Assembly: GCA_043228905.1 (NCBI GenBank) | Contig: JBHGNT010000008.1 | Location: 17,670,001-17,734,000, forward strand | From: Azolla caroliniana | Lineage: Eukaryota; Plantae; Polypodiophyta | DNA length: 64,000 nucleotides | Direction of reading: 5' to 3' | Part shown: piece by piece, positions 8,938 through 34,735 of the stretch | How positions within the stretch are numbered: position 1 is the stretch's first letter | Layout: every line of letters starts with the position of its first letter | Made by a program: the position numbers and the translations under genes | Notes under the pieces: generated by a model | What the model was told of the DNA's origin: nothing | Database searches by the model: none | What the model saw: only the letters and a program-made list of their open reading frames with translations

Positions 8938-11244
8938 CCTCAAAATTGTTGAATGAAGTACATGGACAACATCTATATTTCGTTCATTCTTATTGGGCAG
9001 TACCAGTAAGATCAATCTAAATACAGTTTTCTTATCTTAAATTCACTTATTGCATGCATGTGTAATGTTCACTATAAATTTTATATATTTCAGTCTCCAG
9101 CTAATAGAGAATGGCAACTTGCAACATGCTACCATGGTGATGAGTTCATTGCTGCAGTAAAAAAAGGGAAACGTGCATGCTATTCAGTTCCATCTAGAGA
9201 AAAGTGGAGGTAATTGATCAAACACCATGTTGTGAGAAGATTGGAGTATCTTGCATCTACAGAGAGACGAAATGATGGACATCAGTGTTATGTATTAAAA
9301 TACAGTAGATGTTGATATGATAGCAAGCAAAATGGATGACTAAGTTCGGTAGTCTATAGAAACCAATGTGAATATTCTTTGCACTTGCCAAATGTGCAAC
9401 TTGGCATGTGTACATGACGGGAATAGTGTACTATCTTTTCTTTCCAAAAAGAAAGAGATCCATGATAAGGAGGCGAGAATTGTGTATAGAATGCTCAATG
9501 ACGGAACTAACTCATGGGGATACCTAATGACATACAGGATTGCTCATTAATAATTATGGTAGCTAATATGTATGGCAGGCTAATATTAGCCATGGGAACC
9601 CATGATATTTGAACCCATAACCTTTTGCATTGAACAAAAGAAACCATAATCTTTGTTCTGGTAGGGTTTAGGGTTGAGTTACCTGTGGACTTGAGAGATA
9701 TTATTTTCAAGCATCTCCCCTTGACTAAACAATTTCTTCAATGGAGGTAATTTGGGAGATTTTTCAGAATCTGCCATATGTATAAGTCATGTTCTCTCAT
9801 ACGTAATTTTGTAAAAATAGACCAAATATAGTAATTCCTTTCCTCTTCAAAGTATTTGGTGATCAAAATAAGTATTATGACAAATGTATGATCTAGGAAC
9901 TCGTTGAGTATGATATTGGGTTGAGGCATCATATATGGTATTTTCTTGATATTTCATCAATATAATATACCTCGGCATGTTTTTCTATGATTAATTACGC
10001 AACTTAATGAAACATTTAGACAATCAAAATGTTTTTTCATATGTCTTGTTGGAAAGATGCCTATATATATGTACGTGTGTATGTATGCATATAATTAAAA
10101 AAGTTTATTGTGTAGATATTGGTGGGATCTAGTTCTAATAGCCTCCTTTGATCTCTTTATGGAATTGGGAACCAGATTTGGATATGAATTGTTTCTAAGA
10201 GTAAAGGCTGTGAAATGTTGATATGTCACATAGAGCATTATGTTGGATGTATAAGTCCCCATTTGATAGGAGAGATTTGACACAGAACTTGTAGATGTGG
10301 TATGGTGTGTCAAGCTACGATAATATAGGTAATTGCCTCATGGTTGTGGCCTTGCTCATATCAAGCTGCTCGTAACTAAACAACATTGCTGAAATCAGGA
10401 TATTGATATAAGAAGATATGTTGTGAACCTTAGCCCTTGCGCAAATTCGATGTGGTATCATTACGAAGGATCTCGTTATGAAAAACATCATTTTCCTTCT
10501 ACTAAGACATGTTTAAGTTGGCTAAATGAAGAGTGCAAGCAAGGACAATAACACTTTAAATGTGGAAGAAGGAATATGCTAGCCATTTTAGGGACTTCCC
10601 TGACTCTGTTTAGGAAGTGTATACAATGACAATGATCCTTGTGGATGTGTACAAGCCAAGCTTTGTGGGAGAGTATATTTAAGATTTTTTGTCGATAGTG
10701 GATATGGTGTTTTGAGTTGGAGGATATTTTAAACTTGACACTTAATGGATCAACCGTATATGAATGTTTATGGCTCTAAATGGTTTTGCAAAACTAAAGA
10801 CAAGATTGTTGTGTTCATGAAACAAGTGGAATTTGAGGATGGGGAACAATGATATCACGGCCATATCTCTTATAATAAATTAAATGAAGATATATATAAT
10901 AATTGAGAATGTTTCGTCTTGCTTGTTATGATATATAGCTTATTGTTACTGGATTTTCCTGTACTTCATTGAAAACGCTCCCTTTAATGATTTGTATCAA
11001 TTAAGTGGAAGAGGACTCAATTCATTCATTTGGAAGCATTCCATTTTCTCAATATTTATGGTTTTTTCTATTTCTTTTTACATTCTCAATATTTATTCAA
11101 TTTTCACTTGTGTGAAAATGTAGGAGAATCACGACATATTTCTTCTAGGTAATTGCATGTGTTTATGTGAGATCGAATGAAAAAGGAGATCTTGCTGTCA
11201 CTAAAGGTGGTCAATATGATATGCAAAACAGTGGCAAACAGGAG
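8938..11244 (+). pseudogene. Decayed inverted copy of HisHF exons 6 (partial), 7, 9 (partial) and 10
   Basis: 8938-9005 reads [22 protein letters not shown]. 9094-9209 is exon 7 with a +1 A frameshift and HPE>HLE. Exon 8 is deleted. 11149-11244 reads [24 protein letters not shown] (CLD>CVY). Introns are retained, so this is a DNA-level duplication. Confidence 0.9.
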
Positions 11245-12280
11245 GTACAATTTCTTTAGCTACTGTAAACAGCCCTGCATTACTGTTATCAGATTCTAAT
11301 GTTTTCCTTTACATGTGGATGTTCTAAAGTTTCAATGTAGCCCAAGTAAGTTTGTTTGTATTTCATGGGCAGACAGGTTTGTATCATAAGCCAAACAGTA
11401 GTAATATGTGAGATCAATAGCTTTTAGATGACGTGAAGGTTGAGAATATGGTGTTAATCTGTTTTCTTTGGTAACTTCTTGTTTTCAAGTGGAAATTGTA
11501 ACCAGGAGGTTCTTTACATTAATGTGCTTTACCCTACCAACACGAAGTTTTTGTGAATGGACGAGAAATTCAGGAACCACCAACAGTATAAGTAGGAAAG
11601 CTTGTGTGCCTAGGATATAATCTGGGGAAGATGGGTTTTGCCCCAATAGTGGTTAGAGGGGTTACTTCAATTAATGACAGTAGCCATGTCATTCGAGGTT
11701 TGGTTTTATAGCTCACTTAGGCCTCTATCTTTCTTTCTTTTCTTCCTTCCCATAGATAACGTGTACGCATCATCAAGGTGAATTATTCATAAACAATGTG
11801 CATCACAAAGCTTAATTCATTCGTCCTGGTATGTGGATATGAAAAATATTCCTGCATTCATCTTTGTTTTGCTCCACACTCTTCCAGGAATGTTTCTCAC
11901 AGGTGAGTATTACCAGTAAGTTCAAAAAGCACATGAACATTTCATGACAATTATGGTAATCCACATTTAATGTAACAGTTAATATCGCTGGACATACAAC
12001 CACTCAAAAACACTCTAATCTTTAAGAGTCAGAAAGCCATCTACTCTGCAGTACAAACCTCGTCATGTCCTATATAATAATTCTGAATGAGTTTAATAAC
12101 ATCTACTACAAAACTGTAGCATACTCTTTAGTGCAGCGCCGCACCTCTATGCCTTCTTCTTGCATATGCTCTTTCACATCTCCTATTTGAACCTAAAAAA
12201 AATACAAGTCATTTTAGAAGGTAGAATGGGAATTTTCACGTATCATGTGTAAACAGGTACATACCAACAAACAATTCTTA
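8938..12280 (+). repeat. Long inverted repeat, arm A (partner 27782-33488)
   Basis: Colinear reverse-complement match. The ORF track shows identical peptides at 9368-9550/32877-33059 and 10095-10313/32106-32324, and near-identical peptides at 11812-12003/28044-28268. Confidence 0.95.
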
Positions 12281-33200: not shown

Positions 33201-34735
33201 GGTGTTTGAGCAATTACCTCCACTTTTCTCTGGATGGAACTGAACAGCATGCACGTTTCCCTTTTTTACTGCGGCAATGAACTCATCACCATGGTAGCAT
33301 GTTGCAAGTTGCCATTCTCTATTAGCTGGAGACTGAAATATATAAAATTTATAGTGAACATTACACATGCATGCAATAAGTGAATTTAATATAAGAAAAC
33401 TGTATTTAGACTGATCTTACTGGTATTGCCCGATAAGAATGAACGAAATATAGATGCTGTCCATGTACTTCATTCAACAGTTTTGAGGGTCTCTTTATAT
33501 TCAACCGGTTCCAACCAATGTGAGGAACTTTAACCATTTCAGATGACTCGAACTTCCTAACAACTCCAGATATGAGGCCAAGCCCTTCAACTGCAAAAGC
33601 TTTAATTTTCAGTATCAGAAAATATATACACATTTGGACTAGTAACCATAACAGCATAGAGGTAACATATTCTTTACCATTGCCTTTCTCTTCACTGCTT
33701 TCGAAAAGAAGTTGCAAACCAAGGCATATACCCAGAAAATGCTTATCTTGCAGAATATAATCACGCAAAGCATCTGCCAACCTACCAGGCAGACTCTTCT
33801 ACTTTACCACAAGATAAAAGCAGTTATTCCTGTCAATATATGATACATCTTCATAACGAAGCCTACCCTTGTTTTCGGATGGAGTCCATAGCAGTCCCAA
33901 ATGCTCCTACGCCAGGAAATATTAAGTGCTTCGCATTTTCTATGTCCCTGGCACATTTCACCTGGTCAAATATTCACATGTGAGTACAACAAAAAAGACT
34001 CAATAATGATGAAACTGTTCATGAGCATACAGAATCAGTACGAGAGCGAAAGATCATAGGCAATCTACATCAAACATGAGTATTTTTACATAAGTAAATA
34101 TATTGGGCAATTTACTATTTCATTAGGTCTTCAATCAGCTATCCCATGCTGAATTACTCATGAAAACGATTAAAATCTACTGAAATGCAAGTGGAAAACA
34201 TATGTAACCTCCTTTATTTGATAGCCAAGGTGATGAATAGCATTCCGAATGCTGCGAACATTTCCAGCTCCATAATCCAACAAAGATACCACTGAATATG
34301 AAGAAAAGATCACAAAGAGAAGCTCAATCAATCAAAGAAATCAACAAGAACTTACGTATATCGGGCTGAGTAGGTATTCTAAAAATAACATCAAGAACTG
34401 ATCAAATAGGACCAGGGAGAAAGATAAATAAGAAATAGAAAGACGATCAAAGAAAATCTAGACGTACCGAAGTAGTGAAGGAAGGAAGGAGGAAAAAGGA
34501 AGCATCACCTTTCGTTTCTTGTGAAGAAACGATGCTTCCATGCTGAAGATGAGAGCATCTTGGCACCAAGAACCTTCTACTACTTCTACATTCGCTGCTT
34601 CCTCTGGAATTCAGAAGCAGCGGAGCATTAAATGATTTATCAGAGATTAGTCCAAACACCTGCGAATTCAAAAGATTGTGAGTTTCAAAAGGAGAAGAAG
34701 GAGCAGGATTCAGCGTAGAGAATTAGCTGTACCAT
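12106..34735 (-). CDS. HISN4: Imidazole glycerol phosphate synthase HisHF (glutaminase + cyclase), plastid-targeted, 20 coding exons, about 596 aa
   Basis: Exons in transcript order: 34733-34735 (ATG only), 34509-34659, 34209-34291, 33867-33961, 33678-33781, 33421-33590, 33218-33332, 29942-30000, 29044-29097, 28844-28942, 27532-27594, 25664-25726, 25498-25580, 24398-24506, 18612-18665, 18446-18533, 18342-18379, 18145-18250, 17626-17792, 12106-12192. Total 1791 nt with consistent phases. Introns are GT-AG except one GC-AG. Motifs: [28 protein letters not shown] (catalytic Cys), [82 protein letters not shown]. The Ser/Arg-rich N-terminus resembles a transit peptide. Confidence 0.95.
12394..14690 (-). 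mobile_element. Degenerate Ty1/copia (IN-RT-RNaseH + short 3' LTR at about 12394-12526) in HisHF intron 19
   Basis: [11 protein letters not shown]...[36 protein letters not shown]; about 140-bp tandem duplication 13388-13665; LTR homologous to 18823-18997. Confidence 0.88.
14700..16950 (+). mobile_element. Degenerate Ty1/copia IN/RT fragment in intron 19
   Basis: [31 protein letters not shown]; about 225-bp tandem duplication 15565-16007. Confidence 0.85.
16153..16887. mobile_element. Solo LTR
   Basis: TGTTGGG...CCCAACA termini with 5-bp TSD GAAAT on both sides; splits the host RT motif [14 protein letters not shown]. Confidence 0.88.
18823..19560 (+). mobile_element. Copia 5' LTR (about 175 bp) + PBS + gag remnant in intron 14; a partial LTR copy recurs at about 23412-23470
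   Basis: PBS TGGTATCAAAGC at about 19000; LTR text shared with 12394-12526 and 23412-23470. Confidence 0.75.
19570..22186 (-). mobile_element. Ty1/copia 3' half (IN C-term, RT, RNase H, PPT, LTR) in intron 14
   Basis: ORFs 20672-22186 ([27 protein letters not shown]) and 19868-20617 ([24 protein letters not shown]); PPT AGATGGGAGG followed by TGTTGGGAAT at about 19762. Confidence 0.92.
22187..23413 (+). mobile_element. 5'-truncated non-LTR retrotransposon, L2/CR1/RTEX-like C-terminus, (TCTT)n-like tail
   Basis: [38 protein letters not shown] motif; related fragment at about 29280-29700. Confidence 0.7.
27870..27929 (+). pseudogene. Antisense copy of the HisHF terminal exon inside intron 10 ([19 protein letters not shown])
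   Basis: ttcttttag|GTTCTAATAGGAGAT...CACTAA matches exon 20 (12106-12192, minus) in reverse complement, together with about 85 bp of the last intron and the downstream 3' region. Confidence 0.9.
29280..29700 (+). mobile_element. LINE fragment of the same family as 22187-23413, in intron 8
   Basis: YGVETWG-like motif; [19 protein letters not shown] matches [19 protein letters not shown]. Confidence 0.7.

What the first reader, a model, noticed from the sequence alone, without database searches (positions are those of the whole stretch)
8938..33488. HisHF is wrapped in its own inverted repeat, leaving a potentially invertible 15.5-kb central cassette
Seen: in gene orientation the locus reads E1-10, antisense(3' region + E20), E11-19, E20, 3' region, antisense(E10-E6). 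The segment 12281-27781 (exons 11-19, most of the cyclase domain) is therefore flanked by about 3.3 kb of inverted homology, and both arms share the same unusual junction between intron 10 and the 3' flank. Inference: a crossover between the arms would flip exons 11-19 away from the promoter-bearing 5' half and line them up with the pseudo-exons (8938-11244) and the alternative last exon (27870-27929). That would be an on/off isomer pair like plastid IR flip-flop, but in a nuclear histidine-biosynthesis gene. A parsimonious origin is a fold-back duplication of E6-10 followed by repeat expansion through ectopic conversion into intron 10.
Basis: partly seen in the sequence, partly recalled or inferred. 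Interest (0 to 1): 0.8.

Follow-up and report, generated by a model that had tools for sequence, protein, structure and literature searches.

The report
Gene wrapped in its decaying duplicate
A fern-type histidine-synthesis gene is flanked by back-to-front partial copies of itself; it is intact and normally spliced, and the copies are likely an old duplication accident kept partly alike by gene conversion rather than a working on/off flip switch.

Summary
The inverted repeat is real. Left arm 8938-12280 pairs with right arm 33488-27782 around a 15,501-bp core holding exons 11-19. The gene is an intact 596-codon, 20-exon fern-type HisHF. One RNA run splices intron 10 straight across the antisense E20' copy and joins E19 to the real E20. 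Pieces of the arrangement occur in a second study's sample and in three related organisms, each with its own deletions, so it is old and eroding, not a misassembly. Arm divergence is patchy (1-2% tracts beside 7-11%, permutation p<0.001), which points to gene conversion. Flipping was neither seen nor testable with contigs. A flip would be predicted to give a null allele, and in about 95% of the arm length E19 stays with the real E20, not E20'. This resembles IDS/IDSP1-type gene-pseudogene inversion substrates, not plastid flip-flop. The unusual part: each arm holds one live and one dead piece of the same gene, and the pre-mRNA carries a 375-nt antisense copy of its own 3' end. My three look-ups of earlier scan notes showed no such case.

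The parts
12106..34735 (-). HisHF gene (bifunctional imidazole glycerol phosphate synthase), 20 exons, 596 codons, open frame; E1 (ATG only) is inferred
   Evidence: 74-78% identity to the 8 best of 120 fetched homologues; 11 introns seen as RNA joints
27782..33488 (-). Right arm: live E6 (3' part), E7, E8, E9, E10, then antisense copy of the 3' region and E20, inside intron 10
8938..12280 (+). Left arm: dead E6', E7', E9', E10' on +; live E20 and 3' UTR on -
   Evidence: X1 contigs with 0 differences at 8797-9045 and 10989-11295
12281..27781 (-). Central segment, E11-E19 (771 nt coding, residues 312-568, most of the cyclase barrel), with Copia remnants in introns 14 and 19
27595..28843 (-). 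Intron 10 (1,249 nt), spliced out across the antisense insert
   Evidence: RNA joint 27592>28842 in X16
27870..27929 (+). E20', copy of the last exon with an intact AG acceptor, a 5-nt deletion and an early stop; no use seen
   Evidence: the 2 listed X16 contigs on this stretch differ from it as the real E20 does
27782..28156 (-). 375 nt of the pre-mRNA complementary to the end of intron 19, E20 and the 3' UTR (354 pairs, -577 kcal/mol predicted)
12106..12192 (-). E20, the used last exon; 3' UTR runs to about 11917
29044..29097 (-). E9 (54 nt), placed by RNA joints
29270..31521 (-). Segment present only in the right arm (Copia RT fragment, degenerate E7 copy, E8); deleted from the left arm at 10835/10836
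   Evidence: joint 29265>31518 in X2 and X4
8938..9005 (+). E6' (last 68 nt of E6 only)
9094..9209 (+). E7', +1 A frameshift
11005..11060 (+). E9', acceptor AG changed to AA, 3' end replaced
11149..11244 (+). E10', 3-nt deletion, catalytic Asp codon changed
8938..9559 (.). Near-identical tract (1.8% substitutions; perfect runs of 116, 121 and 222 bp), likely converted
9560..9902 (.). Diverged patch (7.0%), likely unconverted remnant of the old copy
9903..10590 (.). Near-identical tract (1.2%; perfect run of 291 bp), likely converted

Best explanation
This is an intact, normally spliced HisHF gene carrying a real inverted partial duplication of itself, which is likely an old accident that is decaying, is occasionally patched by gene conversion between the arms, and would give a null allele rather than a second working state if it flipped. 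Shown: the two arms, the intact reading frame, the broken pseudo-exons, splicing in the assembled orientation, presence of arm pieces in other samples and related organisms with different deletions, and patchy arm identity. Inferred: (1) an inverted copy of E6-E10 was first placed behind the 3' UTR, creating the junction once; (2) a repair event anchored in the shared sequence copied the junction, 3' UTR and E20 into intron 10; (3) the gene survives because intron 10 is likely removed before E20 is transcribed 15.5 kb later, so the self-complementary stem seldom forms; (4) later arm-to-arm repair resolved without crossover, leaving 0.6-0.7 kb converted tracts, with selection removing flips and conversions that damage live exons.
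For: Open 596-codon frame with the glutaminase triad and both cyclase Asp motifs. RNA run X16 shows 11 of the 13 introns within the laid stretch as joints (introns 1 and 5 were not among the rows shown), including intron 10, and both listed 3'-end contigs are joined to E19 and differ from E20' (18 letters + 6 gaps; 16 + 10) about as the real E20 does (17 + 6 gap letters). Every lesion found lies in the dispensable copy. The left-arm deletion joint is in X2 (other study) and X4 (organism B). X2's second arm has its own 905-bp and 128-bp deletions; organisms C and D share a 489-bp gap that removes the antisense 3' UTR; C has a 125-bp loss across E9/E10. In D two overlapping contigs (11165-11649, 11603-12005) cover the whole E10-to-3'UTR interval. 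Patchiness: longest run 291 bp against 89 expected, p<1e-4 of 20,000 permutations; intron 7 alone p=0.0004. In the diverged patch 4 of 13 polarisable sites keep the outgroup letter in the left arm. In the flanking tracts the left arm is closer to its own right arm (8 of 957) than another sample's right-arm allele is (28 of 1,306; p=0.016). Conversion far exceeds inversion in a human Y palindrome (56 versus 3 events, PMC3723533, passages).
Against: Orientation was not measured; contigs cannot link the outer and inner ends. The repeat has lasted across several related organisms, which neutrality does not predict strongly. Left-arm letters inside the near-identical tracts (9182-9339, 9712-9902, 10389) were not seen in X1 contigs, so those tracts rest mainly on the assembly. 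The relatives' 489-bp joint has only 26-30 letters on its short side and is not linked to intron 10 by a listed contig. Only 15 of 67 joints were shown, so an E10-to-E20 skip could be hidden. One RNA run only. The order of origin is not separable from later conversion.
Confidence: 0.75

Rival explanations
1. The repeat acts at the RNA level: the 375-nt antisense copy in intron 10 pairs with the end of intron 19, E20 and the 3' UTR, and so yields an in-frame E10-to-E20 skip (a 339-residue protein with the whole glutaminase domain but almost no cyclase), an E11-E19 circle, or small RNAs that damp the gene.
For: Predicted duplex of 354 pairs, -577 kcal/mol against -110 for 20 shuffles. E10/E11 and E19/E20 joins are both phase 0; E11-E19 is 771 nt, a multiple of 3 without a stop. 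Reverse-complementary flanks can drive circles, and inverted partial gene copies make 24-nt siRNAs in poplar (PMC9860190, PMC9636151, passages).
Against: Normal E10-E11 and E19-E20 joins in X16. The E19 donor lies 5.3 kb from the paired stretch and the stem would cover the E20 acceptor. Organisms C and D appear to have lost the 3' UTR part of the stem. Few plant circles have such flanks (PMC9860190).
Confidence: 0.1
2. A flipped allele arises rarely by crossover in the near-identical intron 7 tracts and can persist as a null haplotype, sheltered by other copies in a heterozygous or polyploid plant.
For: The arms have recombined. Yeast 4.2-kb repeats of 97.6% identity invert repeatedly over evolutionary time (PMC9731477, passages). 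X1 holds at least two left-arm types, which suggests more than one haplotype.
Against: None seen. A crossover in intron 7 is predicted to leave a 250-residue truncated product on the promoter side and a promoterless remainder. In yeast no gene is cut by the flip.
Confidence: 0.07
3. Parts of the left arm, chiefly the near-identical tracts, are an assembly or polishing artefact that borrowed right-arm sequence.
For: X1 contigs show only right-arm letters at 9182-9339, 9712-9902 and 10389; X2's second arm lacks 9396-10300.
Against: X1 contigs match the left arm exactly across its outer edge (8797-9045) and at 10989-11295, and a left-type contig covers about 9647. Left-arm letters at 4 sites equal the outgroup letters. 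Small bubbles are dropped from such contigs. The repeat as a whole is present in other samples.
Confidence: 0.05
4. The cassette is a working DNA switch: a programmed or frequent crossover flips E11-E20 and turns histidine synthesis off in some cells.
For: The geometry permits it; the repeat is old; a regulated nuclear flip exists in Ogataea (PMC5720833, passages).
Against: Known switches use identical repeats (2 kb identical in Ogataea); here the arms are 91-97% alike with large indels that differ between samples. Mismatch repair restrains recombination between 0.5-9% diverged substrates in Arabidopsis (PMC7062918, passage citing Li 2006). The flipped state makes no second product. No recombinase or conserved crossover site was looked for or seen.
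Confidence: 0.03

Closest known systems
Human IDS / IDSP1 gene-pseudogene pair (PMC11610362, passages; PMC12632684, abstract and outline)
   Same: A partial, rearranged copy of the gene lies next to it in opposite orientation; crossover would invert part of the gene and destroy it.
   Different: Here the duplication is two-sided: a copy of the last exon and 3' UTR also sits antisense inside the gene's own intron 10, so each arm has a live and a dead piece. No inverted allele is known here; 130 patients are listed for IDS.
Y-chromosome palindrome P6 (PMC3723533, passages)
   Same: Arm-to-arm conversion in tracts, with crossover much rarer than conversion.
   Different: P6 arms exceed 99.9% identity; these arms are 91-97% alike, short and eroding.
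Saccharomyces chromosome XIV flip/flop region (PMC9731477, passages)
   Same: A few-kb inverted repeat around a roughly 20-kb core, shared by related species and homogenised by conversion.
   Different: In yeast whole genes sit in the arms, boundaries are conserved and both orientations are seen; here a flip would cut one gene in two and the arms differ in structure between samples.
Ogataea polymorpha mating-type flip/flop (PMC5720833, passages) and plastid IR isomers (recalled)
   Same: Inverted repeat around an invertible core.
   Different: Those use identical repeats and both isomers are functional; neither holds here.
Arabidopsis Ws PAI1-PAI4 inverted repeat (PMC3203196, passages) and poplar ARR17 partial inverted copies (PMC9636151, passages)
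   Same: Inverted gene copies at a plant locus, in PAI's case an amino-acid synthesis gene, able to form double-stranded RNA.
   Different: Those are tight hairpins with shown methylation or siRNA; here the spacer is 15.5 kb, the antisense part is spliced out, and no small RNA or methylation data were available.

Membership tests
Plant bifunctional HisHF (IGP synthase) | N-terminal class I glutaminase fused to a C-terminal HisF barrel | tested here: met
   74-78% identity over 539-575 aligned residues to the 8 best homologues (73% for one), which carry PF00117 and PF00977; homologue P0001 matches yeast HisHF 1jvn at 5e-175
Plant bifunctional HisHF (IGP synthase) | Cys-His-Glu triad and two cyclase aspartates | tested here: met
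   C130, H235, E237, D284, D442 in conserved motifs; their catalytic roles are recalled
Plant bifunctional HisHF (IGP synthase) | Open frame and spliced transcript | tested here: met
   596 codons without an internal stop, 18 GT-AG and 1 GC-AG introns; 11 introns seen as RNA joints
Inversion-permissive gene-pseudogene pair (IDS/IDSP1 type) | Unprocessed partial copy in opposite orientation close to the gene | tested here: met
Inversion-permissive gene-pseudogene pair (IDS/IDSP1 type) | Copy is non-coding through disabling changes | tested here: met
   partial E6', frameshifted E7', E8 deleted, E9' acceptor lost
Inversion-permissive gene-pseudogene pair (IDS/IDSP1 type) | Inverted alleles actually occur | not testable with these tools
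   only contigs were available
Inverted repeat under gene conversion | Mosaic identity with homogenised tracts younger than the duplication | tested here: met
   permutation and Fisher tests; tracts rest partly on the assembly
Flip-flop isomer system (plastid IR, Ogataea MAT) | Identical or near-identical arms along their length | tested here: not met
   193 substitutions and 23 indels, one of 2.25 kb
Flip-flop isomer system (plastid IR, Ogataea MAT) | Both orientations are functional | tested here: not met
   predicted products of a flip are truncated or promoterless; a sequence prediction, not an assay
Flip-flop isomer system (plastid IR, Ogataea MAT) | Both isomers present at appreciable frequency | not testable with these tools
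   needs long reads
Hairpin/siRNA or circle-forming inverted repeat (PAI, ARR17 type) | Both arms on one transcript and able to pair | tested here: met
   375-nt complement on the unspliced pre-mRNA; 3' end near 11917 from RNA contigs
Hairpin/siRNA or circle-forming inverted repeat (PAI, ARR17 type) | Small RNAs, methylation or circles are produced | tested here: inconclusive
   no small-RNA data; CpG and CHG ratios of the arms do not stand out from other long introns; no skip or back-splice among the 15 of 67 joints shown

The most novel reading that the evidence does not exclude
The repeat is a working intragenic DNA switch in a plant nucleus: crossover in the homogenised intron 7 tracts flips exons 8-20 away from the promoter in particular cells or stages, splitting glutaminase from cyclase and shutting histidine synthesis off, and conversion keeps those tracts alike for that purpose.
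Probability: 0.03. Interest if true: 0.85.

Novelty: new variant of a known kind. Interest (0 to 1): 0.3.

Why it matters
As it stands, it is a tidy natural example of a housekeeping plant gene that tolerates both a built-in inversion substrate and an antisense copy of its own 3' end inside an intron, over a span long enough to be shared by related organisms. It offers a small testbed for conversion versus crossover between diverged inverted repeats in a fern-type genome and for whether co-transcriptional splicing defuses a long-range pre-mRNA stem. If flipping or exon skipping were shown to be regulated, it would be a new way to control a core metabolic enzyme; present data do not point there.

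Tried and rejected
No whole genome is held, so other HisHF copies could not be counted. My first guess for E9 (29862-29804) broke the frame and was replaced by the RNA-defined exon at 29097-29044; a guessed 23-nt exon near 34378 is skipped in RNA; one search used wrong E15 and E19 borders, corrected. The unique 3' end of intron 10 shows no similarity to intron 19, and the left outer flank none to the gene's 5' part (scores within 40 shuffles), so original breakpoints could not be traced. The 3' end region alone folds no better than shuffles (z 0.82). CpG/CHG depletion gave no signal. A staggered-break inversion was considered and rejected: it gives the two duplicated pieces in a different order. 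One search listed no holder on record as RNA; X16 was a guess that the splice joints then confirmed. Contig depths were not used as copy numbers. No Pfam scan of the neighbouring ORFs was obtained; Copia and Gypsy labels come from recalled motifs translations. That plant HisHF is single-copy and essential is recalled; the search for it found 0 papers. Searches for a prior description (15 of 5,687 listed; 15 of 49 listed) showed none on this locus or layout, a limited check. PMC3961182 and PMC8016264 (passages) added no deciding point. Earlier scan notes: 0 near, 0 by sequence, 8 of 41 shown by words, all on retrotransposons. No supplements were read.
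Full report
Observation. A self-comparison of the window finds three inverted matches that together pair 8938-12280 with 33488-27782. The global alignment has 193 substitutions and 23 indels in 3,351 columns. The right arm holds 2,252 bp that the left lacks, with a 4-bp AGGA microhomology at the join, and a further 64 bp. 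The core between the arms is 15,501 bp.

The gene. Homologues and translated searches give a HisHF on the minus strand. With RNA-defined borders it has 20 exons and 596 codons without an internal stop; the best matches are 73-78% identical and include a named fern protein. The glutaminase triad and cyclase aspartate motifs are present (roles recalled; family confirmed through yeast 1jvn). E11-E19 encode residues 312-568. The right arm carries live E6-E10 and, antisense in intron 10, a copy of 88 nt of intron 19, E20 and the 3' region. The left arm carries live E20 and, antisense to the gene, a partial E6', a frameshifted E7', no E8, an E9' without acceptor and an altered E10'. The real E20 keeps the C-terminal extension seen in the closest homologues; E20' has a 5-nt deletion.

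Expression. In run X16, 11 of the 13 introns in the laid stretch appear as joints, including intron 10 across the antisense insert; loose ends show E14 joined to E15 and E19 joined to the last exon. The two listed 3'-end contigs differ from E20' by 18 letters and 6 gaps, and 16 and 10; the arms differ there by 17 substitutions and 6 gap letters, so at least the first derives from the real E20 and neither matches E20'. The gene therefore works in the assembled orientation in that sample. Only 15 of 67 joints and 8 of 48 X16 records were shown.

Reality and age. X1 (which may be the source sample, so not independent) has contigs identical to the left arm across its outer edge and at 10989-11295. 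X2 (another study) and X4 (organism B) carry the left-arm deletion joint, and X2 has two different contigs over 28637-29196, with 5 and 51 differences. X2's second arm has its own 905-bp and 128-bp deletions. Organisms C and D have sequence collinear from E10 into the antisense 3' UTR (fully covered in D by two overlapping contigs), and both have a form with a 489-bp gap beside forms without it. I infer that the arrangement predates their split and is eroding. The gap joint rests on 26-30 letters and its place in intron 10 is inferred.

Exchange between the arms. Substitutions run 1.8% (8938-9559), 7.0% (9560-9902), 1.2% (9903-10590), 10.4-10.7% (10591-11628) and about 6% (11629-12280). The longest perfect run is 291 bp against 89 expected (p<1e-4); intron 7 alone gives p=0.0004. 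In the 7% patch, 9 of 13 polarisable sites are left-derived and 4 keep the outgroup letter on the left, as an old unconverted copy would (only the 40 rows shown could be used). In the flanking tracts the left arm is closer to its own right arm than X2's right-arm allele is (8 of 957 against 28 of 1,306, p=0.016; this assumes X2's differences are evenly spread). Homogenised tracts mean one-way copying, not reciprocal swaps. Against this: left-arm letters in those tracts were not seen in X1 contigs, which drop small bubbles.

What a flip would do. Crossover outside E20 (3,168 of 3,343 left-arm bases) carries E20 along with E11-19; only the innermost 88 nt would place E20' behind E19. Crossover in the best-matched intron 7 tracts is predicted to leave a 250-residue truncated product on the promoter side and E8-E20 without promoter or start. 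Crossover between E10 and E20 would allow an in-frame E10-E20' splice of 330 residues with almost no cyclase. Each is a loss of function. Contigs cannot reveal orientation, so flipping is untested.

RNA-level rival. The unspliced transcript holds 375 nt complementary to its own 3' end (354 pairs, -577 kcal/mol; shuffles -110), and E11-E19 is an in-frame 771-nt block. Skips, circles or small RNAs are possible, but normal splicing is what was seen, the E19 donor is 5.3 kb from the stem, and relatives seem to have lost most of the stem.

Origin. The shared junction must have formed once and been copied. An inverted copy of E6-E10 could come from template switching or from repair after crossover with an inverted allele; the data do not choose.

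Comparison. The closest known case is the human IDS/IDSP1 pair, a partial inverted pseudogene whose crossover inverts and breaks the gene (PMC11610362, passages; PMC12632684, abstract). Conversion outnumbers inversion 56 to 3 in Y palindrome P6 (PMC3723533, passages). Yeast has a homogenised flip/flop region that cuts no gene (PMC9731477, passages) and a regulated flip between identical 2-kb repeats (PMC5720833, passages). Mismatch repair limits recombination between diverged substrates in Arabidopsis (PMC7062918, passage, second-hand). PAI1-PAI4 and poplar ARR17 copies act through double-stranded RNA (PMC3203196, PMC9636151, passages). The two-sided layout, with a live and a dead piece of one gene in each arm, did not appear in the listings.

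Verdict. Observation confirmed; interpretation partly supported. A real, old, decaying inverted partial duplication under occasional conversion (0.75); a working DNA switch is unlikely (0.03). New variant of a known kind; interest 0.3.

Noticed in passing
window 30319-30525 (-): A second, much older degenerate copy of E7 with flanking intron (67.6% identity, in-frame stop) in intron 7, same orientation as the gene.
   Followed up: partly
window 62602-62784 (+), with related pieces at 34944-35062 and 35296-35388: A degenerate fragment of E18 and intron 18 (76% identity) 28 kb upstream of the gene, inverted; shorter related pieces lie just 5' of the gene. The locus has shed fragments more than once.
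   Followed up: partly
window 35133-35203, 35447-35638, 35747-35871: Pieces of intron 7 (left-arm 9866-10352) recur in the 5' flank at 71-86% identity; high contig depth near 10024-10147 suggests a dispersed repeat.
   Followed up: no
window 18611-18534 (-): Intron 15 has a GC donor, the only one of 19.
   Followed up: partly
window 6312-8655: A short LTR element (257-bp direct repeats, 95.7%; gag-like ORF 6492-8009) nested beside a Gypsy-like pol region at 798-5828; a very high-copy repeat at about 8686-8934 abuts the left arm's outer edge.
   Followed up: no
window 12281-12945 and 18830-22186: Copia-like remnants in introns 19 and 14; a truncated element end abuts the left arm's inner edge, so that edge may be a later deletion point.
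   Followed up: no
window 52910-61210: A near-complete Gypsy-like element with long terminal repeats of 92-97% identity containing tandem subrepeats.
   Followed up: no
runs X1, X6, X16 on window 8660-12370 and 24300-35800: Several allele types per run (two left-arm types in X1; two transcript types about 5% apart in X16) suggest heterozygous or polyploid samples; the window seems to be a minority haplotype of X1.
   Followed up: partly
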